DNA of 64,000 nucleotides from an uncultured Candidatus Saccharibacteria bacterium (GTDB lineage: Bacteria > Patescibacteriota > Minisyncoccia > Phycocordibacterales > UBA12088). The DNA lies in NCBI GenBank assembly GCA_964567265.1, contig CAZMLK010000002.1, positions 2,996 to 66,995 on the forward strand, in the 5' to 3' direction. Positions 34,619 to 42,058 of the stretch are shown here, piece by piece; the first letter of the stretch is position 1, and the number at the start of each line of letters is the position of its first letter. Made by a program: the position numbers and the translations under genes. Under the pieces are notes generated by a model that was given only the letters and a program-made list of their open reading frames with translations, searched no databases and was not told the origin of the DNA.

Positions 34619-35206
34619 CTACACGCGACTCGCCGCGAGCGCCTGATTCACGAACTCGAGCATTTCCTTCTGATCGGCCCGCATTTCCTCGAGAATCGCG
34701 CGGCCATATCCGCTGTCTGCGATGTACCGCGCGGTCTTCCCCTCCCCCGAGACATAGCCGAGCGCGTAGAGAAGGCGGAGCGCGGCCAGGACCTCGACTT
34801 CGACAAGAAAGGCGTCGGCTTCATTCGCAAGAAGCGTATCAAGGAGCTCGCGGAGCGACGCATAGGCATATGGATGCCGCTCCTCTCCATGGAGCCGGCG
34901 GATGAGCGCGGTGATGCGGAGAAGGAGTGCGCGCTTCGCACGCTCTTCCCTGAGGAGCGAGCTGTATGAGAGTCGCGGCACGGCGCCGGTAAGCCGCCAT
35001 GTATCCTTGCCGCGCACAAGCGCGACATCGGAGAGCATGTGGTTCTGGAGCGCGTAGCGGAGCTTGGAGCGTTCGACGCGGACGCTCCTGGCGACCGCGC
35101 GGACGACGCCGAGGTCGCTGGTGAAGAGCGTGATGAAACGGTTCGCTTCGCCGACGCCGACGCCTCCGAGCACGAACGCCTCCGTTTCATAGATACGGTG
35201 CGCCAT
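34619..35206 (-). CDS. recO: DNA repair protein RecO (short form)
   Basis: N-terminal OB-fold pattern ETEAFVL..GEA..ITLFT and C-terminal helical part; 195 aa, no Zn finger. Confidence 0.6.
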   Translation of the reverse strand: MAHRIYETEAFVLGGVGVGEANRFITLFTSDLGVVRAVARSVRVERSKLRYALQNHMLSDVALVRGKDTWRLTGAVPRLSYSSLLREERAKRALLLRITALIRRLHGEERHPYAYASLRELLDTLLANEADAFLVEVEVLAALRLLYALGYVSGEGKTARYIADSGYGRAILEEMRADQKEMLEFVNQALAASRV

Positions 35207-35212
35207 GACGGA

Positions 35213-38200
35213 TTACGGTATGAGCGCGTAGCGGATGGTGTGGCCGAAGAGATCGATCTGCGGGAGCTCTTCTTCGAGCGGGACTGTCGTGATTTCAGAA
35301 ACGCCCGCGACGCGTTCGAGCTCGCTCTGATGCTTCTTCAGGAATGCGTAGCCGGCGTCGGTGGTATCGACAAGGAGTCGCGCAGAATCACCCGGCGCCA
35401 TGCCGGAAAGCTTGCGCGTCTGCTGGAGGAGCCGGAGGAGATCACGCACGGCACCCTCCTCAAGGAGCTCGTTCGAGATCGTGGTATCGAGGAGGACGTC
35501 CTCCGCCTGGTCGCGGTTGATCTTCACCTCCTTCACGTTGAGCTCGTCCTTGATGAGATCGAGATACTCACTCTTTTCGATGAGGATCTCGCTCCGGATG
35601 GTGAGTTTGGGGAGCGGCTGGCGGATCTTGATGCCGCTCGCGGCGCGCGCTTCGAGCGCCTTCGACACGACCTCGCGGACCGCGCCCATCAGCATCAATG
35701 ATTCCTGGTCCGCGAGGCGGACCTCCGGCCACGATTCGAGGTGGACGCTCTCAAGCTTCCCTCCCGTACCCTGATAGATATTTTCGGCAATGAACGGCAT
35801 CAACGGCGCGATGTATTTTGAAAATTCGCGGAGCACGAGCGCGGTCGTCATGAGTGCATTGTCGCGGTCCCGCATGTCATCACCTTTGAAGCGGTCGCGT
35901 GATCGGCGCACGTACCACGTCGAGAAATCCTCGATGAAGGCGCGGATGGAACGGACCGCGCGGACCGTATCATAGAGATCGAGATAGTGTGTCACCTCCT
36001 GGCCCATCGAGGCGAGGCGCGCGAGGAGCCAGCGGTCGAGCACATGCGTGCTCGGCGCACCTCGGTCCGCGACGACTTCCTCCCCTTTCTGGAGCTCGTA
36101 GAATTTATACGCATTCCAAAGCATGCCGATGAGGCGGTTGTGCATCTCGCGAACCTCGTCATCATTAAAGCGGATATCCTCCGACTGCATGACGACGCTG
36201 CCCATGAGATAGGCTCTGAGCGCGTCGGCGCCGAAACGATCGAGGTTCGCCATCGGGTCAGTGTAGTTCCCCTTCGACTTCGACATCTTGGCCCCATCAG
36301 CTGCAAGGATGGTGCCGGTCGAGACGACCGAGCGGAAGCTCTGCTTGTCGAAGAGCTGGATGCCCATCACATGCATGTAGTAGAACCAGGTACGGGTCTG
36401 CGCGATGTATTCGGAGATGAAATCGCCGGGGAATCGCTTCTCGAAGCGGTCCTCATTCTCGAACGGATAGTGCTCGCTCGCGAACGGCATCGAACCGGAC
36501 TCGAGCCAGCAGTCCACGACTTCCGGGATGCGGACGAGCTGACTGCCGTCGTCATCAAGAAGCGGCACCGCGTCGATATACGGGCGATGGAGATCCGGCT
36601 CGAAGTTCGCCCGGTGCGGGTACGGGAAGAACGGGATCTCATGGCATTCCGCGTGCGCGACATTATCGCTGGTGCCTTCGTAGAGATTGAGGATCCCCTC
36701 GCTATCGAGGAATCGCGTGTAGCCGTCGATCATGAGGAGTGGCGAGCCATGCGAGATGATGAGGATATTCTTCCCCGCGTGCGTCCCTTCGAGATCAAAC
36801 AAACAGGCAAGCGAGCGAGCGCCGACCTCTGCGAGCGATTCGCCTCCCTCGGGCGCATGATACATGCGCTCGCGAAGCGAGCGCGCCCGGTATTCACTGA
36901 TCGGCTTCCCTTCGAAGACGCCGGCGCTGATCTCCCGAAGCCGGTCATCGACGATGACGGCAGCATCAGGAAGGCCGAGCACGGCGCGCACGATCTCGGC
37001 CGTCTGCCGCGTACGCATGAAGGGCGAAGTGATGATGAGATCGATCTTCTCGGGAAGAAGGGCTTCGGCTGATTTCTGCACCATCGCCTTCCCCGCCACC
37101 GTCAGCTCGTGCGGATTGTCTACGTTCGTGGACATGATCCCCGCGACATTGCTCTCCGCTTCTCCGTGGCGCATGCGGAAATAGCGGTTGCCGGATTTCT
37201 TGGCACGCGCGCGGAGTTCTTCGACCGAACCGATGACCACGACCTTCCCGGTCGCAGGATTCTTCCAGATCGGGAGTGGGCTCGCCCAGTAGCGATTGCG
37301 GGAAATGGTCCAGTCAGGTGCATTCTCCACGATGTTGCCGAACCGTCCATGCTTCAAGTGATCGGGCACCCAGTTGATGTTCTGATTGAGCTCAAGCATG
37401 CGATGCTTGATTTCCTGCACATTGATGAACCACGAGGAGATCGCGTTGTAGATGAGCGGCGTGCCGCAGCGGTAGCAATGCGGGTAGGAGTGCGTCCGTG
37501 GCGCTTTCGCAAAGAGGAGCGCACGCTCCGTGAGTTCAGCCTTGATGAAGGTCTCCGCGTCCTCGCCTTTCTGTACCGGGCAGACGCCGCGCGCGTGCCA
37601 CTTGAAATACTTGCCGATGACGAACGCCGGCGCATCTTCATTGAAGGTGCCGTTCGGGGTGAGGAGCTGCACTGCCGGGAGGTCTATCTTCTGTCCGAGC
37701 GCGTAGTCATCCTCGCCGTACATGACGGCGGTATGGACAATGCCCGTGCCTTCGGTGGTCGTCACGAAATCCGCAGCGGCGACATAGTGCGATTTCTTGC
37801 CGCTTCCCTCGATCTTCGGGATCACGTACAAGGGCTCGTACTCCATATTCAGGAGGTTCCGTCCGCTGTACTCTTTATTCTTCGTGTATGCCGATTCCCA
37901 ATCAGCGCCAAGCACCGCAGCCGCGAGCGCCGACGCGAGGATGTACACCTCCTTCGTCTCTTTCGATTCGAATTCTCCGTAGTCGATCGCAGACCCGACT
38001 GCAAGGGCGACATTGCCGGGAAGGGTCCACGGCGTCGTCGTCCACGCAAGGAGGAACGCGTTCTCGGGAAGATCATGGCTGTCTGGATTCTTGATCCGGA
38101 ACTTCACCGTCACCGCCTCTTCGGTCACGTCTTCGTAGGTATTGTCCATGGCGATCTCGGCCTTCGCGAGCGGCGTCTCGTCGTGGACGCAGTACATGAG

Positions 38201-38764
38201 AACCTTTCGTCCTTCGTAGAGGCGGCCCTTGTCGCTGATCTTCTTGAGGCCCCACCACACGCTCTCGATATACGAGTTGTCCATCGTCTTGTAGGAATGG
38301 TCGAAATCGACGAAACGACCGACGCGGTCGATGTACTGCTTCCAGTCGGCAACGAATTCGAGCACGACGGAACGCGCCGCCTCGTTGAACGCCTCGACGC
38401 CCATGGCTTCGATTGCCTTCTTGGTCTTGAGCCCGAGCTTCTTCTCGATGATGCTCTCTATCGGGAGGCCGTGGCAGTCCCAGCCCCAGCGCCGGTCCAC
38501 ATGGAAGCCGTGCATGGTCTTGTAGCGCGGGATCACATCCTTGATGATTGAGGGGAGGAGGCTTCCATAGTGCGGAAGTCCGGTCGCGAACGGCGGCCCG
38601 TCATAGAAAACGAATTCACCTTTCGGGGATTCCTTCGCGAGCGTCTTCGCGAAGATGTCCTTCTCTTTCCAGTAGGACAAGACCGCTTCCTCTCGCAGGG
38701 CGGTCTCGCTTTTTACCGGTCCAGCGTCGGGAACGGCACTCTGTGGGGTGTTTTCTTCTGCCAT
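35213..38764 (-). CDS. ileS: isoleucyl-tRNA synthetase, type 2, with an inserted histidine-phosphatase (PGAM-like) domain
   Basis: PHYG (HIGH), CP1 editing WTTTPWTLPGN, KMSKSKGN; residues ~526-720 carry RHGEAESN...SPFMRTRQTAE...ISHGSPL; start at MAEENT (ATG 38764). Confidence 0.9.
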   Translation of the reverse strand: MAEENTPQSAVPDAGPVKSETALREEAVLSYWKEKDIFAKTLAKESPKGEFVFYDGPPFATGLPHYGSLLPSIIKDVIPRYKTMHGFHVDRRWGWDCHGLPIESIIEKKLGLKTKKAIEAMGVEAFNEAARSVVLEFVADWKQYIDRVGRFVDFDHSYKTMDNSYIESVWWGLKKISDKGRLYEGRKVLMYCVHDETPLAKAEIAMDNTYEDVTEEAVTVKFRIKNPDSHDLPENAFLLAWTTTPWTLPGNVALAVGSAIDYGEFESKETKEVYILASALAAAVLGADWESAYTKNKEYSGRNLLNMEYEPLYVIPKIEGSGKKSHYVAAADFVTTTEGTGIVHTAVMYGEDDYALGQKIDLPAVQLLTPNGTFNEDAPAFVIGKYFKWHARGVCPVQKGEDAETFIKAELTERALLFAKAPRTHSYPHCYRCGTPLIYNAISSWFINVQEIKHRMLELNQNINWVPDHLKHGRFGNIVENAPDWTISRNRYWASPLPIWKNPATGKVVVIGSVEELRARAKKSGNRYFRMRHGEAESNVAGIMSTNVDNPHELTVAGKAMVQKSAEALLPEKIDLIITSPFMRTRQTAEIVRAVLGLPDAAVIVDDRLREISAGVFEGKPISEYRARSLRERMYHAPEGGESLAEVGARSLACLFDLEGTHAGKNILIISHGSPLLMIDGYTRFLDSEGILNLYEGTSDNVAHAECHEIPFFPYPHRANFEPDLHRPYIDAVPLLDDDGSQLVRIPEVVDCWLESGSMPFASEHYPFENEDRFEKRFPGDFISEYIAQTRTWFYYMHVMGIQLFDKQSFRSVVSTGTILAADGAKMSKSKGNYTDPMANLDRFGADALRAYLMGSVVMQSEDIRFNDDEVREMHNRLIGMLWNAYKFYELQKGEEVVADRGAPSTHVLDRWLLARLASMGQEVTHYLDLYDTVRAVRSIRAFIEDFSTWYVRRSRDRFKGDDMRDRDNALMTTALVLREFSKYIAPLMPFIAENIYQGTGGKLESVHLESWPEVRLADQESLMLMGAVREVVSKALEARAASGIKIRQPLPKLTIRSEILIEKSEYLDLIKDELNVKEVKINRDQAEDVLLDTTISNELLEEGAVRDLLRLLQQTRKLSGMAPGDSARLLVDTTDAGYAFLKKHQSELERVAGVSEITTVPLEEELPQIDLFGHTIRYALIP

Positions 38765-38858
38765 AGGGAAAATCGCTTCAAATATAGCATAAAATGAGCG
38801 CTCTAAAAGCGGAATGGCGGCCCTCACCAAGGTGAGGGCCGCCATGAAAGGCGCGACG

Positions 38859-39116
38859 TCAGGCGGCCAGCAATAGGTCGCCAAATGATGCATGATGCTC
38901 GAATGGATCATCGAGCTCAAGCTCGATACATTTCTCTGGAGGAAAGTCGAGCAGAAAACCAAAAATCCCTAGGGGTTCCATGGTGTAGTATTCGGGGATT
39001 TCGACCGGCAGGCCATTGCACAATACGGCTCTCGGGAATCCGAGATTGCCCATAATTTTGAAAAGAGCCGGGCCACGCTCGTCGGGTTCGCGCGGAAGCT
39101 CGTATTTTACAAGCAC
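38859..39116 (-). CDS. possible small hypothetical protein (85 aa) between argS and ileS
   Basis: ORF in ~470-nt gap; moderate coding look; no homolog recognised. Confidence 0.3.
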   Translation of the reverse strand: MLVKYELPREPDERGPALFKIMGNLGFPRAVLCNGLPVEIPEYYTMEPLGIFGFLLDFPPEKCIELELDDPFEHHASFGDLLLAA

Positions 39117-39230: not shown

Positions 39231-40919
39231 TTACATCTTTTCTGGAGTCCGGATACCGAGCAGGTGGAGGCCATTCTGCACGGTGGACTGGAATGCCTTG
39301 GTGAGGGCGACCTTGTACGGCGAGGCAGCATCATTCTGGTCGACGATCTTCTCATTCGCATACCAGGAGCTGAATGCTCCTGAGAGCTCGGTGAGATAGG
39401 TGGTGATGTAGTGCGGCTCGTACTCGACGGACGCACGCTCGACGATCTCAGGGAACCGGTAGAGAAGGCGCTCGAGCTCGGTGACGGACTCCGGCCGAGG
39501 CTGCGCCTCGGCCGGATCAAACGCAGCAATCCCTTCCTTCGCGGCTTTCTCGAGGACTGACAGCGCCCGCGTATGCGCGTACTGGAGATATGGCCCCGAA
39601 TCGCCCTCGAATGAAAGCGATTTCTCAGGATCGAAGATGATGTCCCGCCCCGTCGACTGTTTCAAAATGACATACTTGATCGCCGCGACCGCGACCATCT
39701 CGGCAACCGCCTCCTTGTCTGTAAGCTCGCGACCCTCCATCTTTTCCCGCGCTGCCGCCTTCATGTCCTCGATCAGCGATTCTCCGGTGATGACGTTCCC
39801 CTTCCGCGACGACATTTTCCCGGTCGTGAGCGTCAAAAATCCGTACGCAAGGTGCTTCACCTTTCCTTCGAGTTCCGGGAATATAAGCGCGAGCGCTTTG
39901 ATGAGCACCTTGAAGTAGTCGCGCTGTTCGACCGCGGTCGTCGTGACTGACAAGTCGAAAGCATACGCATCCTTCTTGAGAGACATGAGTCCGACATCCT
40001 TAGCCTCGTAGGTCGGAAGTCCCATCGAATTGATGAACACGCGCGTATGGAGCCCGTGGTTCTCGCCACGGAATATGACGGCGCCGTCGCTCTTTTCGAA
40101 AATACCGTCATCAATATGCGATTCGACGATCGCCTTCCCGACCGGCGCCGCCTCGCTCTCGAAAAATTCCAAATCGAATTCGGTGCCGAGCGTCTTACAG
40201 ATGTCTTCGAGGTGTCGCTTCGACGTCCCAATGCCAGCCGCGCGAAGCGCATTCAGCTCGGCGTCCGATCCTGCATACAGCGCCTTGTTGATCTCCTCGA
40301 TTTCCTTCTTAGCATCAGCACCCTCTTCATAGCCTGCGTTGCCGACACGATACGCTTCCCCAAGCGCAGCAATTTCTTTCGGGTCGCCTCCTGTTTTCTT
40401 GAGGCCCCACACCCCCTTCGCGACCGTAAGCCCTATGTCAGATGGATAGTTCACGCGCCTCACCTCCGCACCGTTCGCCTCGAACAGCCGTGCAATCGAT
40501 TCCCCCATGATGTTCGACATGAGATTCCCGATGTGGAGCGGCTTGAAGAGGTTGGGGCTCGTGTACTCGACCATCACCTTTTTTCCTGCAAGCGATTGGT
40601 TGCTTCCCCACCGATTCCCTTCCGCGAGTACGTGCACTGTGGCTTCCGTAAAGAAATCGCGGGCGAGGTGGAAGTTGATGAAGCCGGGTCCCGCGACCTC
40701 TACCTTTTCGATCATGCCTGCGGTTGGTATTGCGGCTGCGATTTCTTCGGCGAGCACCTTCGGATTCTTCCCCGCCTGCTTCGCGAGCGCGAGGGCAACA
40801 TTGGTCGAATAGTCTCCATGCGAGAGATCGCCCGGATGCTCGAGGGTTATCGAAGCAGCAGAAAGGCCGAGGACTGAAAGCGCCCTCTCGATCTCCTTCC
40901 GGATGTGATCTGCAGTCAT
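39231..40919 (-). CDS. argS: arginyl-tRNA synthetase
   Basis: N-terminal Arg_tRNA_synt_N fold, HIGH-like HIGN region, class I core; start at MTADHIRK (ATG 40919). Confidence 0.88.
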   Translation of the reverse strand: MTADHIRKEIERALSVLGLSAASITLEHPGDLSHGDYSTNVALALAKQAGKNPKVLAEEIAAAIPTAGMIEKVEVAGPGFINFHLARDFFTEATVHVLAEGNRWGSNQSLAGKKVMVEYTSPNLFKPLHIGNLMSNIMGESIARLFEANGAEVRRVNYPSDIGLTVAKGVWGLKKTGGDPKEIAALGEAYRVGNAGYEEGADAKKEIEEINKALYAGSDAELNALRAAGIGTSKRHLEDICKTLGTEFDLEFFESEAAPVGKAIVESHIDDGIFEKSDGAVIFRGENHGLHTRVFINSMGLPTYEAKDVGLMSLKKDAYAFDLSVTTTAVEQRDYFKVLIKALALIFPELEGKVKHLAYGFLTLTTGKMSSRKGNVITGESLIEDMKAAAREKMEGRELTDKEAVAEMVAVAAIKYVILKQSTGRDIIFDPEKSLSFEGDSGPYLQYAHTRALSVLEKAAKEGIAAFDPAEAQPRPESVTELERLLYRFPEIVERASVEYEPHYITTYLTELSGAFSSWYANEKIVDQNDAASPYKVALTKAFQSTVQNGLHLLGIRTPEKM

Positions 40920-40963
40920 GGAGCCAGTATACAAAAATGCCTCAAATGCGCTACGAAGCGCTT

Positions 40964-42058
40964 TTATTTCGTCTCGAGCTTGAGCGCGGGAGGGACCTCT
41001 GCCGCGACGACGTGGAAGCCGATGCGGCCAATGACCTGGCCTCGCGCGGTCTCCACCGACACGCGCCATTTGCCGGGCGTTACATTCGCCGATTCGGTGT
41101 AGCCACGATAACCCTTCCCCTGCCCACCCGAAATCGGATAGTCGATCCGTGAGAGCGTAACCCAGGAATCCTTGGCGTCATCGTAGCGCTCGAAATGATG
41201 GTAGACGGATGTATTGAGGTCCGTCGGCGCGAACACGGAAGCGAAGATCATCACGGGCTCGCCGGCGACTTGATGGTACACGGGATCGCTCTTCCGCCAG
41301 AAGATGTAGCGGGGCGCCGGCTCATACTGGATTTCGTAGTCGCCGATCGTCGTCCGTTCGACACGATGGACCACCTCGAGCGTCTTCATCGAGAGTGGCA
41401 CCGGCGGGATGAGGTTGGTGAAATAGAGCAGGTTCATCATGACGTAGATCGCGCCGACTGCCCCTGCGATCACGCGGATGCTCTCACGAAGCCGCGCTTC
41501 CGAGAAGGTGTTGATGAGGAAGAGCAGGCCCGTGATGCCGGCAAGACTCATGATGCCCGCGAGCACGAAGAGATAGGGCGACATGAATCCGAAGAGGATT
41601 GGAAGCTGGAATATGAGGAAGGAAAAAAGCACGAGGAAGAACATCGCGACCTGGAGCGCGAAACGCTGGTAGCGTTCCCTGAGGAATTCATTCCCGGTGA
41701 GAAGCGCGGCGAGGATGAGAATGAACGGCCATGATGCCGACAGCGCGGCGGAGCGGAAATAGAAGACAAAGTAGCCAGAAAAGAGCGCCCCCAGAGAAAA
41801 CTGCGCGACGTTCGGAAGCCAGGACGCGTACGACGTGACATGCCGATGCCGAACCCTCCCCGATTCGATGAGCTGCATGAGGACGATGGAGGCCGCGACG
41901 ATTGCGAGATGAGTGAGGAGGACCAGCTGGTCGAACCAGAAATCGATGCGTGTCAGCGTCAGGTTGTCCCACACGAACCCGAGCACAAAGAACACGGTCG
42001 CGGCGTGCTCCGCATGATGCCTGAAGAAGGTGAGTTGTTTCTGAAGCCAGGCTTTCAT
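40964..42058 (-). CDS. polytopic membrane protein with C-terminal DUF2914-like domain
   Basis: 8+ TM helices then soluble domain; start at MKAWLQKQ. Confidence 0.65.
   Translation of the reverse strand: MKAWLQKQLTFFRHHAEHAATVFFVLGFVWDNLTLTRIDFWFDQLVLLTHLAIVAASIVLMQLIESGRVRHRHVTSYASWLPNVAQFSLGALFSGYFVFYFRSAALSASWPFILILAALLTGNEFLRERYQRFALQVAMFFLVLFSFLIFQLPILFGFMSPYLFVLAGIMSLAGITGLLFLINTFSEARLRESIRVIAGAVGAIYVMMNLLYFTNLIPPVPLSMKTLEVVHRVERTTIGDYEIQYEPAPRYIFWRKSDPVYHQVAGEPVMIFASVFAPTDLNTSVYHHFERYDDAKDSWVTLSRIDYPISGGQGKGYRGYTESANVTPGKWRVSVETARGQVIGRIGFHVVAAEVPPALKLETK

What the first reader, a model, noticed from the sequence alone, without database searches (positions are those of the whole stretch)
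36605..37189. Complete histidine-phosphatase (PGAM-like) domain inserted in-frame inside isoleucyl-tRNA synthetase
In the type-2 IleRS (35213-38764), about 195 residues (roughly 526-720) sit between the conserved ...VVVIGSVEELRA and DLHRPYID... blocks, where canonical enzymes have only a short (zinc) linker. This segment carries all hallmark motifs of the histidine phosphatase superfamily: RHGEAESN (catalytic His), SPFMRTRQTAE, E..G.FEG and ISHGSPL. The reading frame is continuous, and KMSKS and the anticodon-binding domain follow normally. It lacks intein-like termini and HEN blocks, so it is a domain insertion and not an intein. I do not know of an aaRS carrying a phosphomutase or phosphatase module. 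It could act on a nucleotide or alarmone substrate, or add an extra hydrolytic or regulatory function coupled to Ile-tRNA synthesis.
Basis: partly seen in the sequence, partly recalled or inferred. Interest (0 to 1): 0.75.

Follow-up and report, generated by a model that had tools for sequence, protein, structure and literature searches.

The report
Phosphatase domain built into isoleucyl-tRNA synthetase
This Parcubacteria (candidate phyla radiation) genome, like several hundred related ones, encodes an isoleucyl-tRNA synthetase with a complete and apparently active histidine-phosphatase enzyme spliced into a surface loop of its catalytic domain; I found no paper describing this, and its substrate is unknown.

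The parts
35213..38764 (-). Complete ileS coding sequence (1183 aa plus stop): type-2 isoleucyl-tRNA synthetase with an embedded phosphatase
   Evidence: One ORF. TIGR00392 ileS 804 bits against a cutoff of 621. Pfam tRNA-synt_1, His_Phos_1, Anticodon_1 and DUF5915. The full-length AF2 model best matches IleRS2 8C8V, E=1e-72.
37196..38764 (-). IleRS residues 1-523: first Rossmann half, CP1 editing domain, start of the second Rossmann half, up to the GSVEELRARAKK helix
   Evidence: Aligns to 1ILE residues 14-482. TTTPWTLPGN and GTGIVH..GEDD editing motifs are invariant in the family.
38561..38572 (-). HIGH signature, here H-Y-G-S (residues 65-68)
   Evidence: HxGS in 106 of 121 sequences; other insert-bearing IleRS keep HxGH.
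36596..37195 (-). Whole insert (residues 524-723) at site A, the tip of the former zinc-knuckle hairpin
   Evidence: Absent from 1ILE (482 to 489) and from the insert-less L082 and L086 IleRS. Length is 196-210 aa in all 121 family members.
36632..37195 (-). Histidine phosphatase domain proper (residues 524-711), from the SGN-Y lead-in to the last beta strand
36596..36631 (-). Conserved return linker (residues 712-723; family consensus F-V-P-L-P-H-N-x-x-Y-E-L) leading back into DLHRPYID
   Evidence: F712, P714, P716, N718, E722 and L723 are 80-99% conserved. This segment has the highest mean conservation within the insert (0.66). It is absent from the free-standing homologues.
37163..37171 (-). 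R532-H533-G534: phosphate-binding Arg and the nucleophilic His
   Evidence: Aligned to the RHG of PhoE 1H2E. Conserved in 121/121, 121/121 and 120/121 sequences.
37013..37015 (-). R584, the second phosphate-clamp arginine (S-P-x-x-R motif)
   Evidence: 121/121; aligned to PhoE.
36932..36934 (-). E611, the predicted general acid (E-I-x-x-G-x-F-E-G-K, as in PhoE)
   Evidence: 120/121; aligned to 'EIHLGDWEGK' of PhoE.
36749..36751 (-). H672, the second active-site histidine (S-H-G)
   Evidence: 121/121; aligned to PhoE 'THG'.
35216..36595 (-). IleRS residues 724-1183: DLHRPYID, DCWLESG, KMSKS, stem-contact fold, anticodon-binding domain and C-terminal DUF5915
   Evidence: Aligns to 1ILE 489-821 and 8C8U 482-857; Pfam.
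36275..36289 (-). KMSKS loop (residues 826-830)
   Evidence: K, S, K and S are invariant in 121/121.
39231..41069 (-). argS (arginyl-tRNA synthetase), the upstream neighbour; in relatives the free-standing phosphatase gene sits between argS and ileS
   Evidence: Pfam; synteny in L001, L082 and L086.
34619..35206 (-). recO-like gene, the conserved downstream neighbour
   Evidence: Pfam RecO_N; the same order occurs in L001, L082 and L086.

Best explanation
The window encodes an ordinary, functional type-2 isoleucyl-tRNA synthetase. A complete PhoE-like histidine phosphatase (branch 1 of the superfamily) has been inserted into the tip of the hairpin that is a zinc knuckle in other IleRS. This architecture is inherited across Parcubacteria. 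Shown: the synthetase keeps its aminoacylation, editing and anticodon-binding motifs. The insert is predicted to fold confidently as a separate alpha/beta domain. Its whole catalytic apparatus is under strong purifying selection while its surface drifts: His533 as nucleophile, Arg532, Arg584 and His672 as the phosphate clamp, Asn539, and Glu611 as general acid. Also shown: the pairing with the synthetase is not accidental. The same phosphatase subfamily occurs as a separate gene ending 1 nt before insert-less ileS. Other IleRS lineages carry copies at three other sites (A2, B, C), with at least three sites occupied in one chain. ValRS of other CPR lineages recruited a different His_Phos lineage into the homologous loop. 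Inferred: the domain is an active phosphomonoesterase that needs to be co-expressed and co-located with a class Ia synthetase but does not need one exact geometry. It most probably hydrolyses a small, probably nucleotide-type, phosphate ester that is produced, bound or required at the synthetase, rather than serving central metabolism. The substrate itself is not identified.
Against: No biochemical data exist and the substrate is unknown. No tool gave 3-D coordinates, so I could not measure where the phosphatase pocket points relative to the aminoacylation site, the KMSKS loop or the tRNA. pTM of the full-length model is only 0.66. The variety of insertion sites fits mere co-expression as well as it fits a mechanistic link. 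About a third of single-copy ValRS inserts lack the Glu donor and some also lack the second His, so catalysis is not always required, at least in the ValRS lineages. None of three insert-less valS genes has a phosphatase neighbour. One free-standing relative (P0283) lies in an unrelated context. Jaffe et al. 2020 (PMC7304191) report PGM undetected in some Parcubacteria clades, which keeps a metabolic role open.
Confidence: 0.5

Rival explanations
1. Hitch-hiking housekeeping enzyme. The domain is the cell's phosphoglycerate mutase, phosphoserine phosphatase or another general metabolic phosphatase. It was first placed in the argS-ileS operon and later embedded in permissive loops of ileS by local rearrangement. 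It has no mechanistic connection to aminoacylation; the fusion only secures its expression in a minimal genome.
For: PGM is reported absent from several shallow Parcubacteria clades (Jaffe 2020, PMC7304191). The short archaeal dPGM model is the best or second-best weak NCBIfam hit for the insert and its free-standing relatives. The many insertion sites argue against a need for precise geometry. An adjacent free-standing copy offers a simple DNA source for insertion. No other His_Phos gene lies in the 64-kb window.
Against: All dPGM, PspA and CobC equivalog scores are far below cutoff, for example 72 against 225 bits. The acid-loop motif E-I-x-x-G-x-F-E-G-K matches PhoE, and by my recollection of dPGM signatures the E-R-H-Y-G and H-G-N motifs are missing. 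Up to four copies per chain is odd for a housekeeping enzyme. An independent recruitment occurred into ValRS in Gracilibacteria-type lineages, and one complete Gracilibacteria genome is reported to lack glycolysis entirely. Among the best 150 profile hits, every multidomain host whose architecture I examined (by Pfam/NCBIfam for a subset, otherwise by class Ia motif order) was IleRS or ValRS; none showed an unrelated large essential protein.
Confidence: 0.22
2. Regulatory module. The domain binds, and perhaps slowly turns over, a phosphorylated metabolite or signalling nucleotide. Alternatively it acts as a protein phosphatase on the synthetase or a partner, in the way PGAM5, Sts-1 and SixA use this fold, for example reversing phosphorylation near the KMSKS loop. 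Either way it tunes IleRS activity to nutritional state.
Against: In the window's IleRS lineage every catalytic residue, including the acid, is invariant, which points to real turnover. The nearest structural and sequence relatives are small-molecule phosphatases, not SixA or PGAM5. No kinase or signalling partner was seen in the conserved neighbourhood.
Confidence: 0.12
3. Third active site for tRNA end-healing. The phosphatase removes a 2'- or 3'-terminal phosphate (or opens and removes a 2',3'-cyclic phosphate) from damaged tRNA held by the synthetase, restoring a chargeable CCA end.
Against: The domain is acidic overall. Site C, after residue 893 in the anticodon-binding domain, is unlikely to reach the acceptor end. 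I know of no histidine-phosphatase-fold RNA 3'-phosphatase. Repair limited to tRNA-Ile or tRNA-Val lacks an obvious rationale. The free-standing form works without being tethered.
Confidence: 0.1
4. Artefact or selfish element: an assembly chimera, a frameshifted gene pair, or an intein-like insertion.
For: None found. One relative (the L001 locus containing P0002) has its ileS broken into four ORFs, which shows that fragmentation does occur in some assemblies.
Against: The ORF is continuous and GC content is continuous. The identical protein appears in independent NCBI and Logan assemblies. At least 579 species carry it at the same site. There are no Hint, intein or endonuclease Pfam hits. 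The junctions lack intein splice residues, and both junction linkers are conserved as protein.
Confidence: 0.01

Closest known systems
Type-2 (eukaryote-like) bacterial isoleucyl-tRNA synthetase, e.g. Thermus thermophilus IleRS (PDB 1ILE), Priestia megaterium IleRS2 (8C8U/8C8V), MupA/MupB
   Same: Full collinear homology outside the insert (E=3e-189 to 1ILE). It passes the ileS equivalog cutoff. KMSKS, the CP1 editing motifs, the anticodon-binding domain and the DUF5915 C-terminal domain are all present. The full-length model matches 8C8V with E=1e-72.
   Different: About 200 extra residues lie between 1ILE positions 482 and 489. The four cysteines of the surrounding zinc knuckle are lost. The HIGH motif reads HYGS. 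NCBI sources name many of the relatives only 'class I tRNA ligase family protein'.
PhoE / PspA / GpgP-type broad-specificity histidine phosphatases (Pfam PF00300, branch 1): B. stearothermophilus PhoE 1H2E, H. thermophilus PspA 4IJ5, M. tuberculosis GpgP 6S2Q
   Different: Only 25-27% identity. It is embedded inside another enzyme or encoded 1 nt upstream of it. It has a family-specific S-G-N-x-Y lead-in and a return linker. It is below every NCBIfam equivalog cutoff, so no known specificity can be transferred.
Other histidine-phosphatase fusions to nucleic-acid enzymes: bifunctional RNase H/acid phosphatase (NCBIfam NF005567; by my recollection exemplified by M. tuberculosis Rv2228c), MutT1 Nudix-His_Phos (Rv2985, PDB 9CXX), TFIIIC tau55 histidine phosphatase domain (2YN0)
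   Different: Those are end-to-end fusions, not insertions into a loop of the partner's catalytic domain. The partners differ. The scores are far below family cutoffs (73 against 326).
Idiosyncratic modules of class Ia synthetases: the LeuRS leucine-specific domain, CP2/CP3 connective peptides, NCBIfam 'ileS_w_GNAT' (NF040702), eukaryotic appended domains (GST, WHEP, EMAPII, UNE-I)
   Same: A lineage-specific accessory module on an otherwise canonical synthetase. The insertion point lies in the second half of the Rossmann fold upstream of KMSKS. I recall this as the region that hosts the leucine-specific domain in LeuRS. PMC11685878 names CP2 and CP3 among the IleRS connective peptides.
   Different: Here the module is a complete, separately known enzyme with a conserved active site. 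It recurs at four or more sites and in several copies. No curated model or paper for it was found.
Cis/trans pairs of synthetase accessory enzymes (AlaX, YbaK/ProX, INS domain of ProRS)
   Same: The same module exists either as a domain of the synthetase or as a free-standing protein in different lineages, as seen here for inserted against ileS-adjacent phosphatases.
   Different: Those modules are aminoacyl-tRNA deacylases with a known editing role. This one has phosphomonoesterase chemistry with no known place in aminoacylation.

Membership tests
Isoleucyl-tRNA synthetase (class Ia; NCBIfam TIGR00392 equivalog) | Whole-protein score above the curated equivalog cutoff | tested here: met
   804 bits against a cutoff of 621.4, although the match is split in two by the insert; valS, leuS and metG models all fall below their cutoffs.
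Isoleucyl-tRNA synthetase (class Ia; NCBIfam TIGR00392 equivalog) | KMSKS catalytic loop | tested here: met
   KMSKS at residues 826-830; K, S, K and S are invariant in 121/121.
Isoleucyl-tRNA synthetase (class Ia; NCBIfam TIGR00392 equivalog) | HIGH (HxGH) signature | tested here: inconclusive
   The window has H-Y-G-S. The first His and the Gly are invariant, but the fourth His is Ser in 106 of 121 relatives. Other insert-bearing IleRS keep HxGH. The effect on catalysis is unknown.
Isoleucyl-tRNA synthetase (class Ia; NCBIfam TIGR00392 equivalog) | CP1 editing domain with a Thr-rich motif and GTG-x-VH...D | tested here: met
   TTTPWTLPGN (242-251) and GTGIVHTAVMYGEDD (339-353) are essentially invariant. 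The region aligns to the isolated editing-domain structures 1WK8 and 1UE0.
Isoleucyl-tRNA synthetase (class Ia; NCBIfam TIGR00392 equivalog) | Class Ia anticodon-binding domain and type-2 C-terminal domain | tested here: met
   PF08264 at 910-1052 (E=1e-27) and PF19302. Best structural matches are type-2 IleRS.
Isoleucyl-tRNA synthetase (class Ia; NCBIfam TIGR00392 equivalog) | Aminoacylation of tRNA-Ile | not testable with these tools
   Needs an enzyme assay. No second ileS was seen in the window.
Histidine phosphatase superfamily, branch 1 (Pfam PF00300) | Score above the Pfam gathering cutoff | tested here: met
   105.7-110.4 bits against 21.7; E=3e-30 and 1e-31.
Histidine phosphatase superfamily, branch 1 (Pfam PF00300) | RHG motif with the nucleophilic His, plus the conserved Asn | tested here: met
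   R532-H533-G534 and N539 align to the PhoE RHGETKWN motif. Conserved in 121, 121, 120 and 117 of 121 sequences.
Histidine phosphatase superfamily, branch 1 (Pfam PF00300) | Second Arg, second His and the acidic proton donor | tested here: met
   R584, H672 and E611 align to their PhoE counterparts. Conserved in 121, 121 and 120 of 121 sequences.
Histidine phosphatase superfamily, branch 1 (Pfam PF00300) | Alpha/beta fold of the superfamily | tested here: met
Histidine phosphatase superfamily, branch 1 (Pfam PF00300) | Phosphomonoesterase activity through a phospho-histidine intermediate | not testable with these tools
   Needs an assay of recombinant protein and an H533A control.
Cofactor-dependent phosphoglycerate mutase (dPGM) | Score above a dPGM equivalog cutoff | tested here: not met
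   dPGM_arch 72.5 against 225; GpmB 53 against 261; PRK01295 30 against 316; PRK14120 19 against 366.
Cofactor-dependent phosphoglycerate mutase (dPGM) | dPGM-specific substrate-binding residues (E-R-H-Y-G after the acid; H-G-N-S after the second His), as I recall them from the literature | tested here: not met
   The sequence shows E-I-S-A-G (611-615) and S-H-G-S-P (671-675). Family columns 612 and 614 are hydrophobic, and column 674 is variable.
Known specific phosphatases (PspA, CobC alpha-ribazole phosphatase, SixA, RNase H/acid phosphatase) | Score above the respective NCBIfam equivalog cutoff | tested here: not met
   PspA 50.6 against 350; CobC 61.5 against 162.9; SixA 37.6 against 74.5; NF005567 73.4 against 326.
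Intein | Hint/intein domain, N-terminal Cys/Ser/Thr splice residue, and C-terminal His-Asn followed by Cys/Ser/Thr | tested here: not met
   No intein, Hint or homing-endonuclease Pfam hit at E<=0.01. The C-terminal junction is ...PHRANFEPD|LHRPYID in the window and PHN-x-x-YELD in the family, with no nucleophile after it. The whole segment is explained by PF00300.

The most novel reading that the evidence does not exclude
The phosphatase is a true third active site of the synthetase, acting on a substrate that the synthetase itself presents. The substrate could be a 2'/3'-phosphorylated or cyclic-phosphate tRNA end (built-in tRNA repair) or a phosphorylated residue of the synthetase's own catalytic loop (built-in resistance to an inactivating kinase). 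If so, CPR bacteria would have added, at least twice independently, a new quality-control or repair layer to class Ia aminoacyl-tRNA synthetases.
Probability: 0.12. Interest if true: 0.9.

Novelty: new variant of a known kind. Interest (0 to 1): 0.7.

Why it matters
Aminoacyl-tRNA synthetases are among the most conserved enzymes known. In bacteria their accessory modules are almost all editing or RNA-binding domains. Here a complete enzyme with unrelated chemistry sits inside the catalytic domain of IleRS in at least 579 species-representative Parcubacteria-type genomes. It has been re-inserted at several sites and in multiple copies, and ValRS of other candidate-phyla-radiation lineages acquired a phosphatase of the same fold, apparently independently. 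That recurrence implies a strong, lineage-specific selective reason linking phosphate-ester hydrolysis to Ile/Val-tRNA synthesis, and no such link is known. Finding the substrate could reveal a new step in tRNA or nucleotide housekeeping, a regulatory input to translation in minimal-genome symbionts, or the location of a 'missing' metabolic enzyme in CPR reconstructions. There are practical consequences too. Sources name many of these proteins only 'class I tRNA ligase family protein'. HMM-based metabolic surveys could also mis-score the embedded domain as a phosphoglycerate-mutase-family gene.

Tried and rejected
1. Insert-only word-indexed homology search. It found only two fused fragments and suggested extreme rarity. 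The full-length search and the genome scan overturned this; the index had simply missed the diverged inserts.

2. P0002 as a free-standing ancestor. Rejected: it is one of four ORF pieces of a fragmented ileS in the same synteny.

3. Tandem copies separated by spacers. Rejected: the 'spacers' are synthetase core, so the copies sit at distinct insertion sites.

4. All hosts are IleRS. Rejected: P0308 and P0160 are ValRS.

5. The HIGH-to-HxGS change co-evolved with the insert. Rejected: 38 insert-bearing IleRS keep HxGH.

6. ValRS and IleRS inserts share one specific origin. Not supported: ValRS inserts score like generic His_Phos proteins on the IleRS-insert profile.

7. An operon partner for valS. 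Not found in three insert-less valS loci.

8. A basic, RNA-binding character. Not found: mean net charge is -6.6.

9. An NJ tree to decide whether free-standing or inserted is ancestral. It is star-like and unresolved.

10. AFDB search for UniProt annotation. The library was unavailable.

11. A second His_Phos gene in the window. None.

12. Nine literature searches. None returned a paper whose title or abstract described this architecture, and several term combinations returned nothing. The library holds open-access papers only, so a report in a subscription journal cannot be excluded.

13. Chimera or intein. Rejected.
Full report
OBSERVATION. The finding is real. The gene lies on the minus strand: one ORF runs from the ATG at 38764 to the stop at 35213-35215 and encodes 1183 aa. 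Pfam places tRNA-synt_1 on both sides of a His_Phos_1 (PF00300) match at residues 531-678 (E=3e-30; E=1e-31 for the excised segment). KMSKS, Anticodon_1 and DUF5915 follow. NCBIfam calls the whole protein IleRS at equivalog level (TIGR00392, 804 bits against a cutoff of 621). The best solved relatives are type-2 IleRS: T. thermophilus 1ILE and P. megaterium IleRS2 8C8U/8C8V.

INSERTION POINT. In the alignment to 1ILE, query residue 523 pairs with residue 482 and query 724 with residue 489. About 200 residues therefore stand where the canonical enzyme has about six. In 1ILE and in two insert-less CPR IleRS (loci L082 and L086) this position is the tip of a CxxC...CxC zinc knuckle. The window protein and nearly all of its close relatives have lost those cysteines. 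More distant insert-bearing relatives (P0001, P0003) keep them. I set the insert at residues 524-723, window 36596-37195. It consists of a domain proper (524-711) and a highly conserved 12-residue return linker (family consensus F-V-P-L-P-H-N-x-x-Y-E-L).

NOT AN ARTEFACT OR INTEIN. GC content is continuous across the insert. The identical protein (P0040) is recorded from NCBI and from an independent Logan assembly. No Hint, intein or endonuclease family matches, and the junctions lack splice residues. The flanking genes (DUF2914, argS, ileS, recO, DUF11-type) occur in the same order in relatives.

IT IS CLADE-WIDE AND UNDER SELECTION. A word-indexed search with the insert alone found almost nothing. 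With the full-length protein, all 120 listed hits carry PF00300 together with the IleRS domains: P0040, which is identical to the window protein, and 119 others at 52-67% identity, 1120-1232 aa in all. Where a source names a taxon, it is Patescibacteria, Parcubacteria, Paceibacterota, Kaiserbacteria or Minisyncoccia. Named groups include Adler-, Wolfe-, Kaiser-, Campbell-, Zambryski- and Nomurabacteria and RAAC4_OD1_1. Many of these records are titled 'Saccharibacteria'; I did not verify that label. An exhaustive profile search of 1.84 billion cluster representatives gave 427 hits at E<=1e-30. In a 121-sequence alignment R532, H533, R584, R650 and H672 are invariant, G534, E611 and E642 are 120/121, and N539 is 117/121. 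Yet the insert averages only 41% pairwise identity, against 64.5% for the synthetase body. Its divergence tracks that of the body (r=0.52), and its length stays at 196-210 aa. This is the signature of a vertically inherited, catalytically constrained domain.

THE ASSOCIATION WITH THE SYNTHETASE IS NOT ACCIDENTAL. Three independent lines support this.

(1) Operon form. Free-standing proteins of 189-196 aa (P0305, P0278, P0289) have the same signature and the same S-G-N-x-Y-type lead-in. P0305 and P0278 lie between argS and an insert-less ileS with a single nucleotide between stop and start (TAA-T-ATG). P0289 lies directly after argS, next to a truncated ORF. They score 181-204 bits on a core profile of the inserts, as high as real inserts left out of the profile (median 173). 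One further free-standing relative (P0283) sits in an unrelated context.

(2) Many sites, many copies. Proteins that at first looked like tandem arrays turned out to carry copies at different places in IleRS:
- Site A: the window's site.
- Site A2: just after the second CxxC of an intact knuckle (P0225, P0248).
- Site B: after DCWFESGSMPYA (P0227, P0300, P0225).
- Site C: after KMSKS, in the loop that follows residue 893 of the window protein, between the first two helices of the anticodon-binding domain (P0227, P0300, P0272).
Copies within one chain are only 19-37% identical, and almost all keep the full catalytic signature.

(3) A second host. P0308 is a valyl-tRNA synthetase (valS equivalog, 849 bits against 704) with two phosphatase domains, and P0160 is a ValRS fragment with four. 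Of 120 ValRS relatives, 73 carry one to four copies. Most copies lie in the loop between DWxISRQ...PVW and DVLDTWF, which is homologous to IleRS site A. Source names are Peregrinibacteria and Gracilibacteria, whereas ValRS from Nomura- and Magasanikbacteria lacks the domain. These ValRS inserts score no better on the IleRS-insert profile than generic free-living His_Phos proteins (median 81 against 77 bits). The simplest reading is independent recruitment. Three insert-less valS loci showed no phosphatase neighbour.

MECHANISM. Shown: the synthetase half retains everything needed for aminoacylation and editing, apart from an unusual H-Y-G-S in place of HIGH. The insert is a structurally complete histidine phosphatase with a conserved active site, and its partnership with class Ia synthetases recurs in evolution. 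Inferred (confidence about 0.5): it is an active phosphomonoesterase that uses His533 as nucleophile and Glu611 as acid, and it must be made with, and kept near, the synthetase. Because several sites and copy numbers all work, and the free-standing form works too, exact geometry seems less important than proximity or stoichiometry. The domain is acidic (mean net charge -6.6) and its cap segment is poorly conserved (0.47). I therefore favour a small, probably nucleotide-type, phosphate ester over the tRNA backbone as substrate.

LIMITS. I could not identify the substrate. No tool returned coordinates, so the position of the pocket relative to the aminoacylation site, the KMSKS loop and the tRNA is unknown.

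RIVALS.
(a) A hitch-hiking housekeeping enzyme (0.22). Jaffe et al. 2020 (PMC7304191) note that PGM is undetected in some shallow Parcubacteria clades, and dPGM_arch is among the best weak hits. However, the acid loop is PhoE-like, the dPGM-specific residues (as I recall them) are absent, all cutoffs are missed, copies are multiple, and Gracilibacteria-type ValRS carries the domain although a complete Gracilibacteria genome is reported to lack glycolysis.
(b) A regulatory or ligand-sensing module, or a protein phosphatase (0.12). This is supported by ValRS inserts that have lost the Glu donor, and sometimes the second His, while keeping the phosphate-binding residues (19 of 58 single copies). 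The invariant catalytic set in the window's lineage argues against it.
(c) A tRNA end-healing third active site (0.10). This is attractive but unsupported by charge, by site C, or by precedent.
(d) An artefact or intein (0.01).

COMPARISON AND NOVELTY. Both halves belong to well-known families, and membership of each was tested and met. The combination is what is new. I found no NCBIfam model for it, although NCBIfam does curate 'ileS_w_GNAT'. None of nine full-text searches returned a paper whose title or abstract described it. The library holds open-access papers only, so a subscription-journal report cannot be excluded. The proteins themselves have been in public databases for years, for example in RAAC4_OD1_1. 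The nearest analogies are other His_Phos fusions to nucleic-acid enzymes (RNase H/acid phosphatase, MutT1, TFIIIC tau55), lineage-specific class Ia insertions such as the LeuRS leucine-specific domain, and cis/trans editing modules such as AlaX and YbaK. I rate it a new variant of a known kind, with interest 0.7. It is surprising to a synthetase specialist and it recurs often enough to imply function, but the mechanism is still open.

Noticed in passing
window 38561-38572 (minus strand; IleRS residues 65-68): The class I HIGH signature reads H-Y-G-S. The fourth His is Ser in 106 of 121 close relatives, while other insert-bearing IleRS and the insert-less partners keep HxGH. Non-canonical HIGH motifs affect mupirocin resistance in IleRS2, judging from the titles of PDB entries 8C8W and 8C9F. 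The consequence here is unknown.
   Followed up: partly
window about 37240-37270 and 36530-36560 (minus strand; IleRS residues about 499-508 and 736-745): The two cysteine pairs of the zinc knuckle that flank the insertion site in 1ILE, in L082/L086 and in P0001, P0003, P0227, P0300 and P0225 are all absent from the window protein and nearly all of its 120 relatives. The zinc site seems to have decayed after the phosphatase was inserted.
   Followed up: partly
window 38180-38182 (minus strand; IleRS residue 195): In the CP1-hairpin zinc site (family C192-P-H-C195 ... C430-x-x-C433) the window has Asp at position 195, a variant seen in only 8 of 121 relatives.
   Followed up: no
window 38765-38962: The ORF stays open for 66 codons upstream of ATG 38764 (back to the TTG at 38962), and the public gene call (P0040) is 1232 aa. 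The family alignment supports the 1183-aa start used here.
   Followed up: partly
P0234 (representative protein, 1066 aa): An IleRS with a His_Phos insert also has a Pfam Y1_Tnp (IS200-like transposase) hit at residues 340-461, inside the editing-domain region, and a GNAT acetyltransferase at its C-terminus. It may be a chimeric gene call or another unusual insertion. NCBIfam separately curates an 'ileS_w_GNAT' family.
   Followed up: no
L001:1937-7869: In one relative, ileS is broken into four ORFs (P0002 is the phosphatase piece), and a TnpB-like gene (HTH_OrfB_IS605) and a Cas1 gene lie between argS and ileS. This could be a pseudogene or long-read frameshift errors.
   Followed up: partly
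P0332, P0413, P0382, P0380 (CPR ValRS relatives): Some ValRS relatives list further unexpected Pfam domains: PF04480 (P0332, P0413), PF00216, which I recall as the HU-type DNA-binding family (P0382), and PF16326 (P0380). CPR class Ia synthetases seem unusually tolerant of foreign domains.
   Followed up: no
P0308 residues 639-860: About 220 residues of unassigned, low-similarity sequence lie between the first phosphatase domain of this ValRS and its DWCISRQ motif.
   Followed up: no
L006-L081 (genome-contig hits): Many insert-bearing loci come from MAGs titled 'uncultured Candidatus Saccharibacteria bacterium' (binchicken co-assemblies). Their inserts are as similar to the window's as those of named Paceibacterota, so the label may be a generic placeholder.
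   Followed up: no
L082:2700-2712 and L086:5563-5575: The junction between the free-standing phosphatase gene and ileS has the identical sequence AAATTAATATGG (stop TAA, one T, then ATG) in two loci whose IleRS proteins are only 38% identical. This suggests conserved translational coupling.
   Followed up: partly
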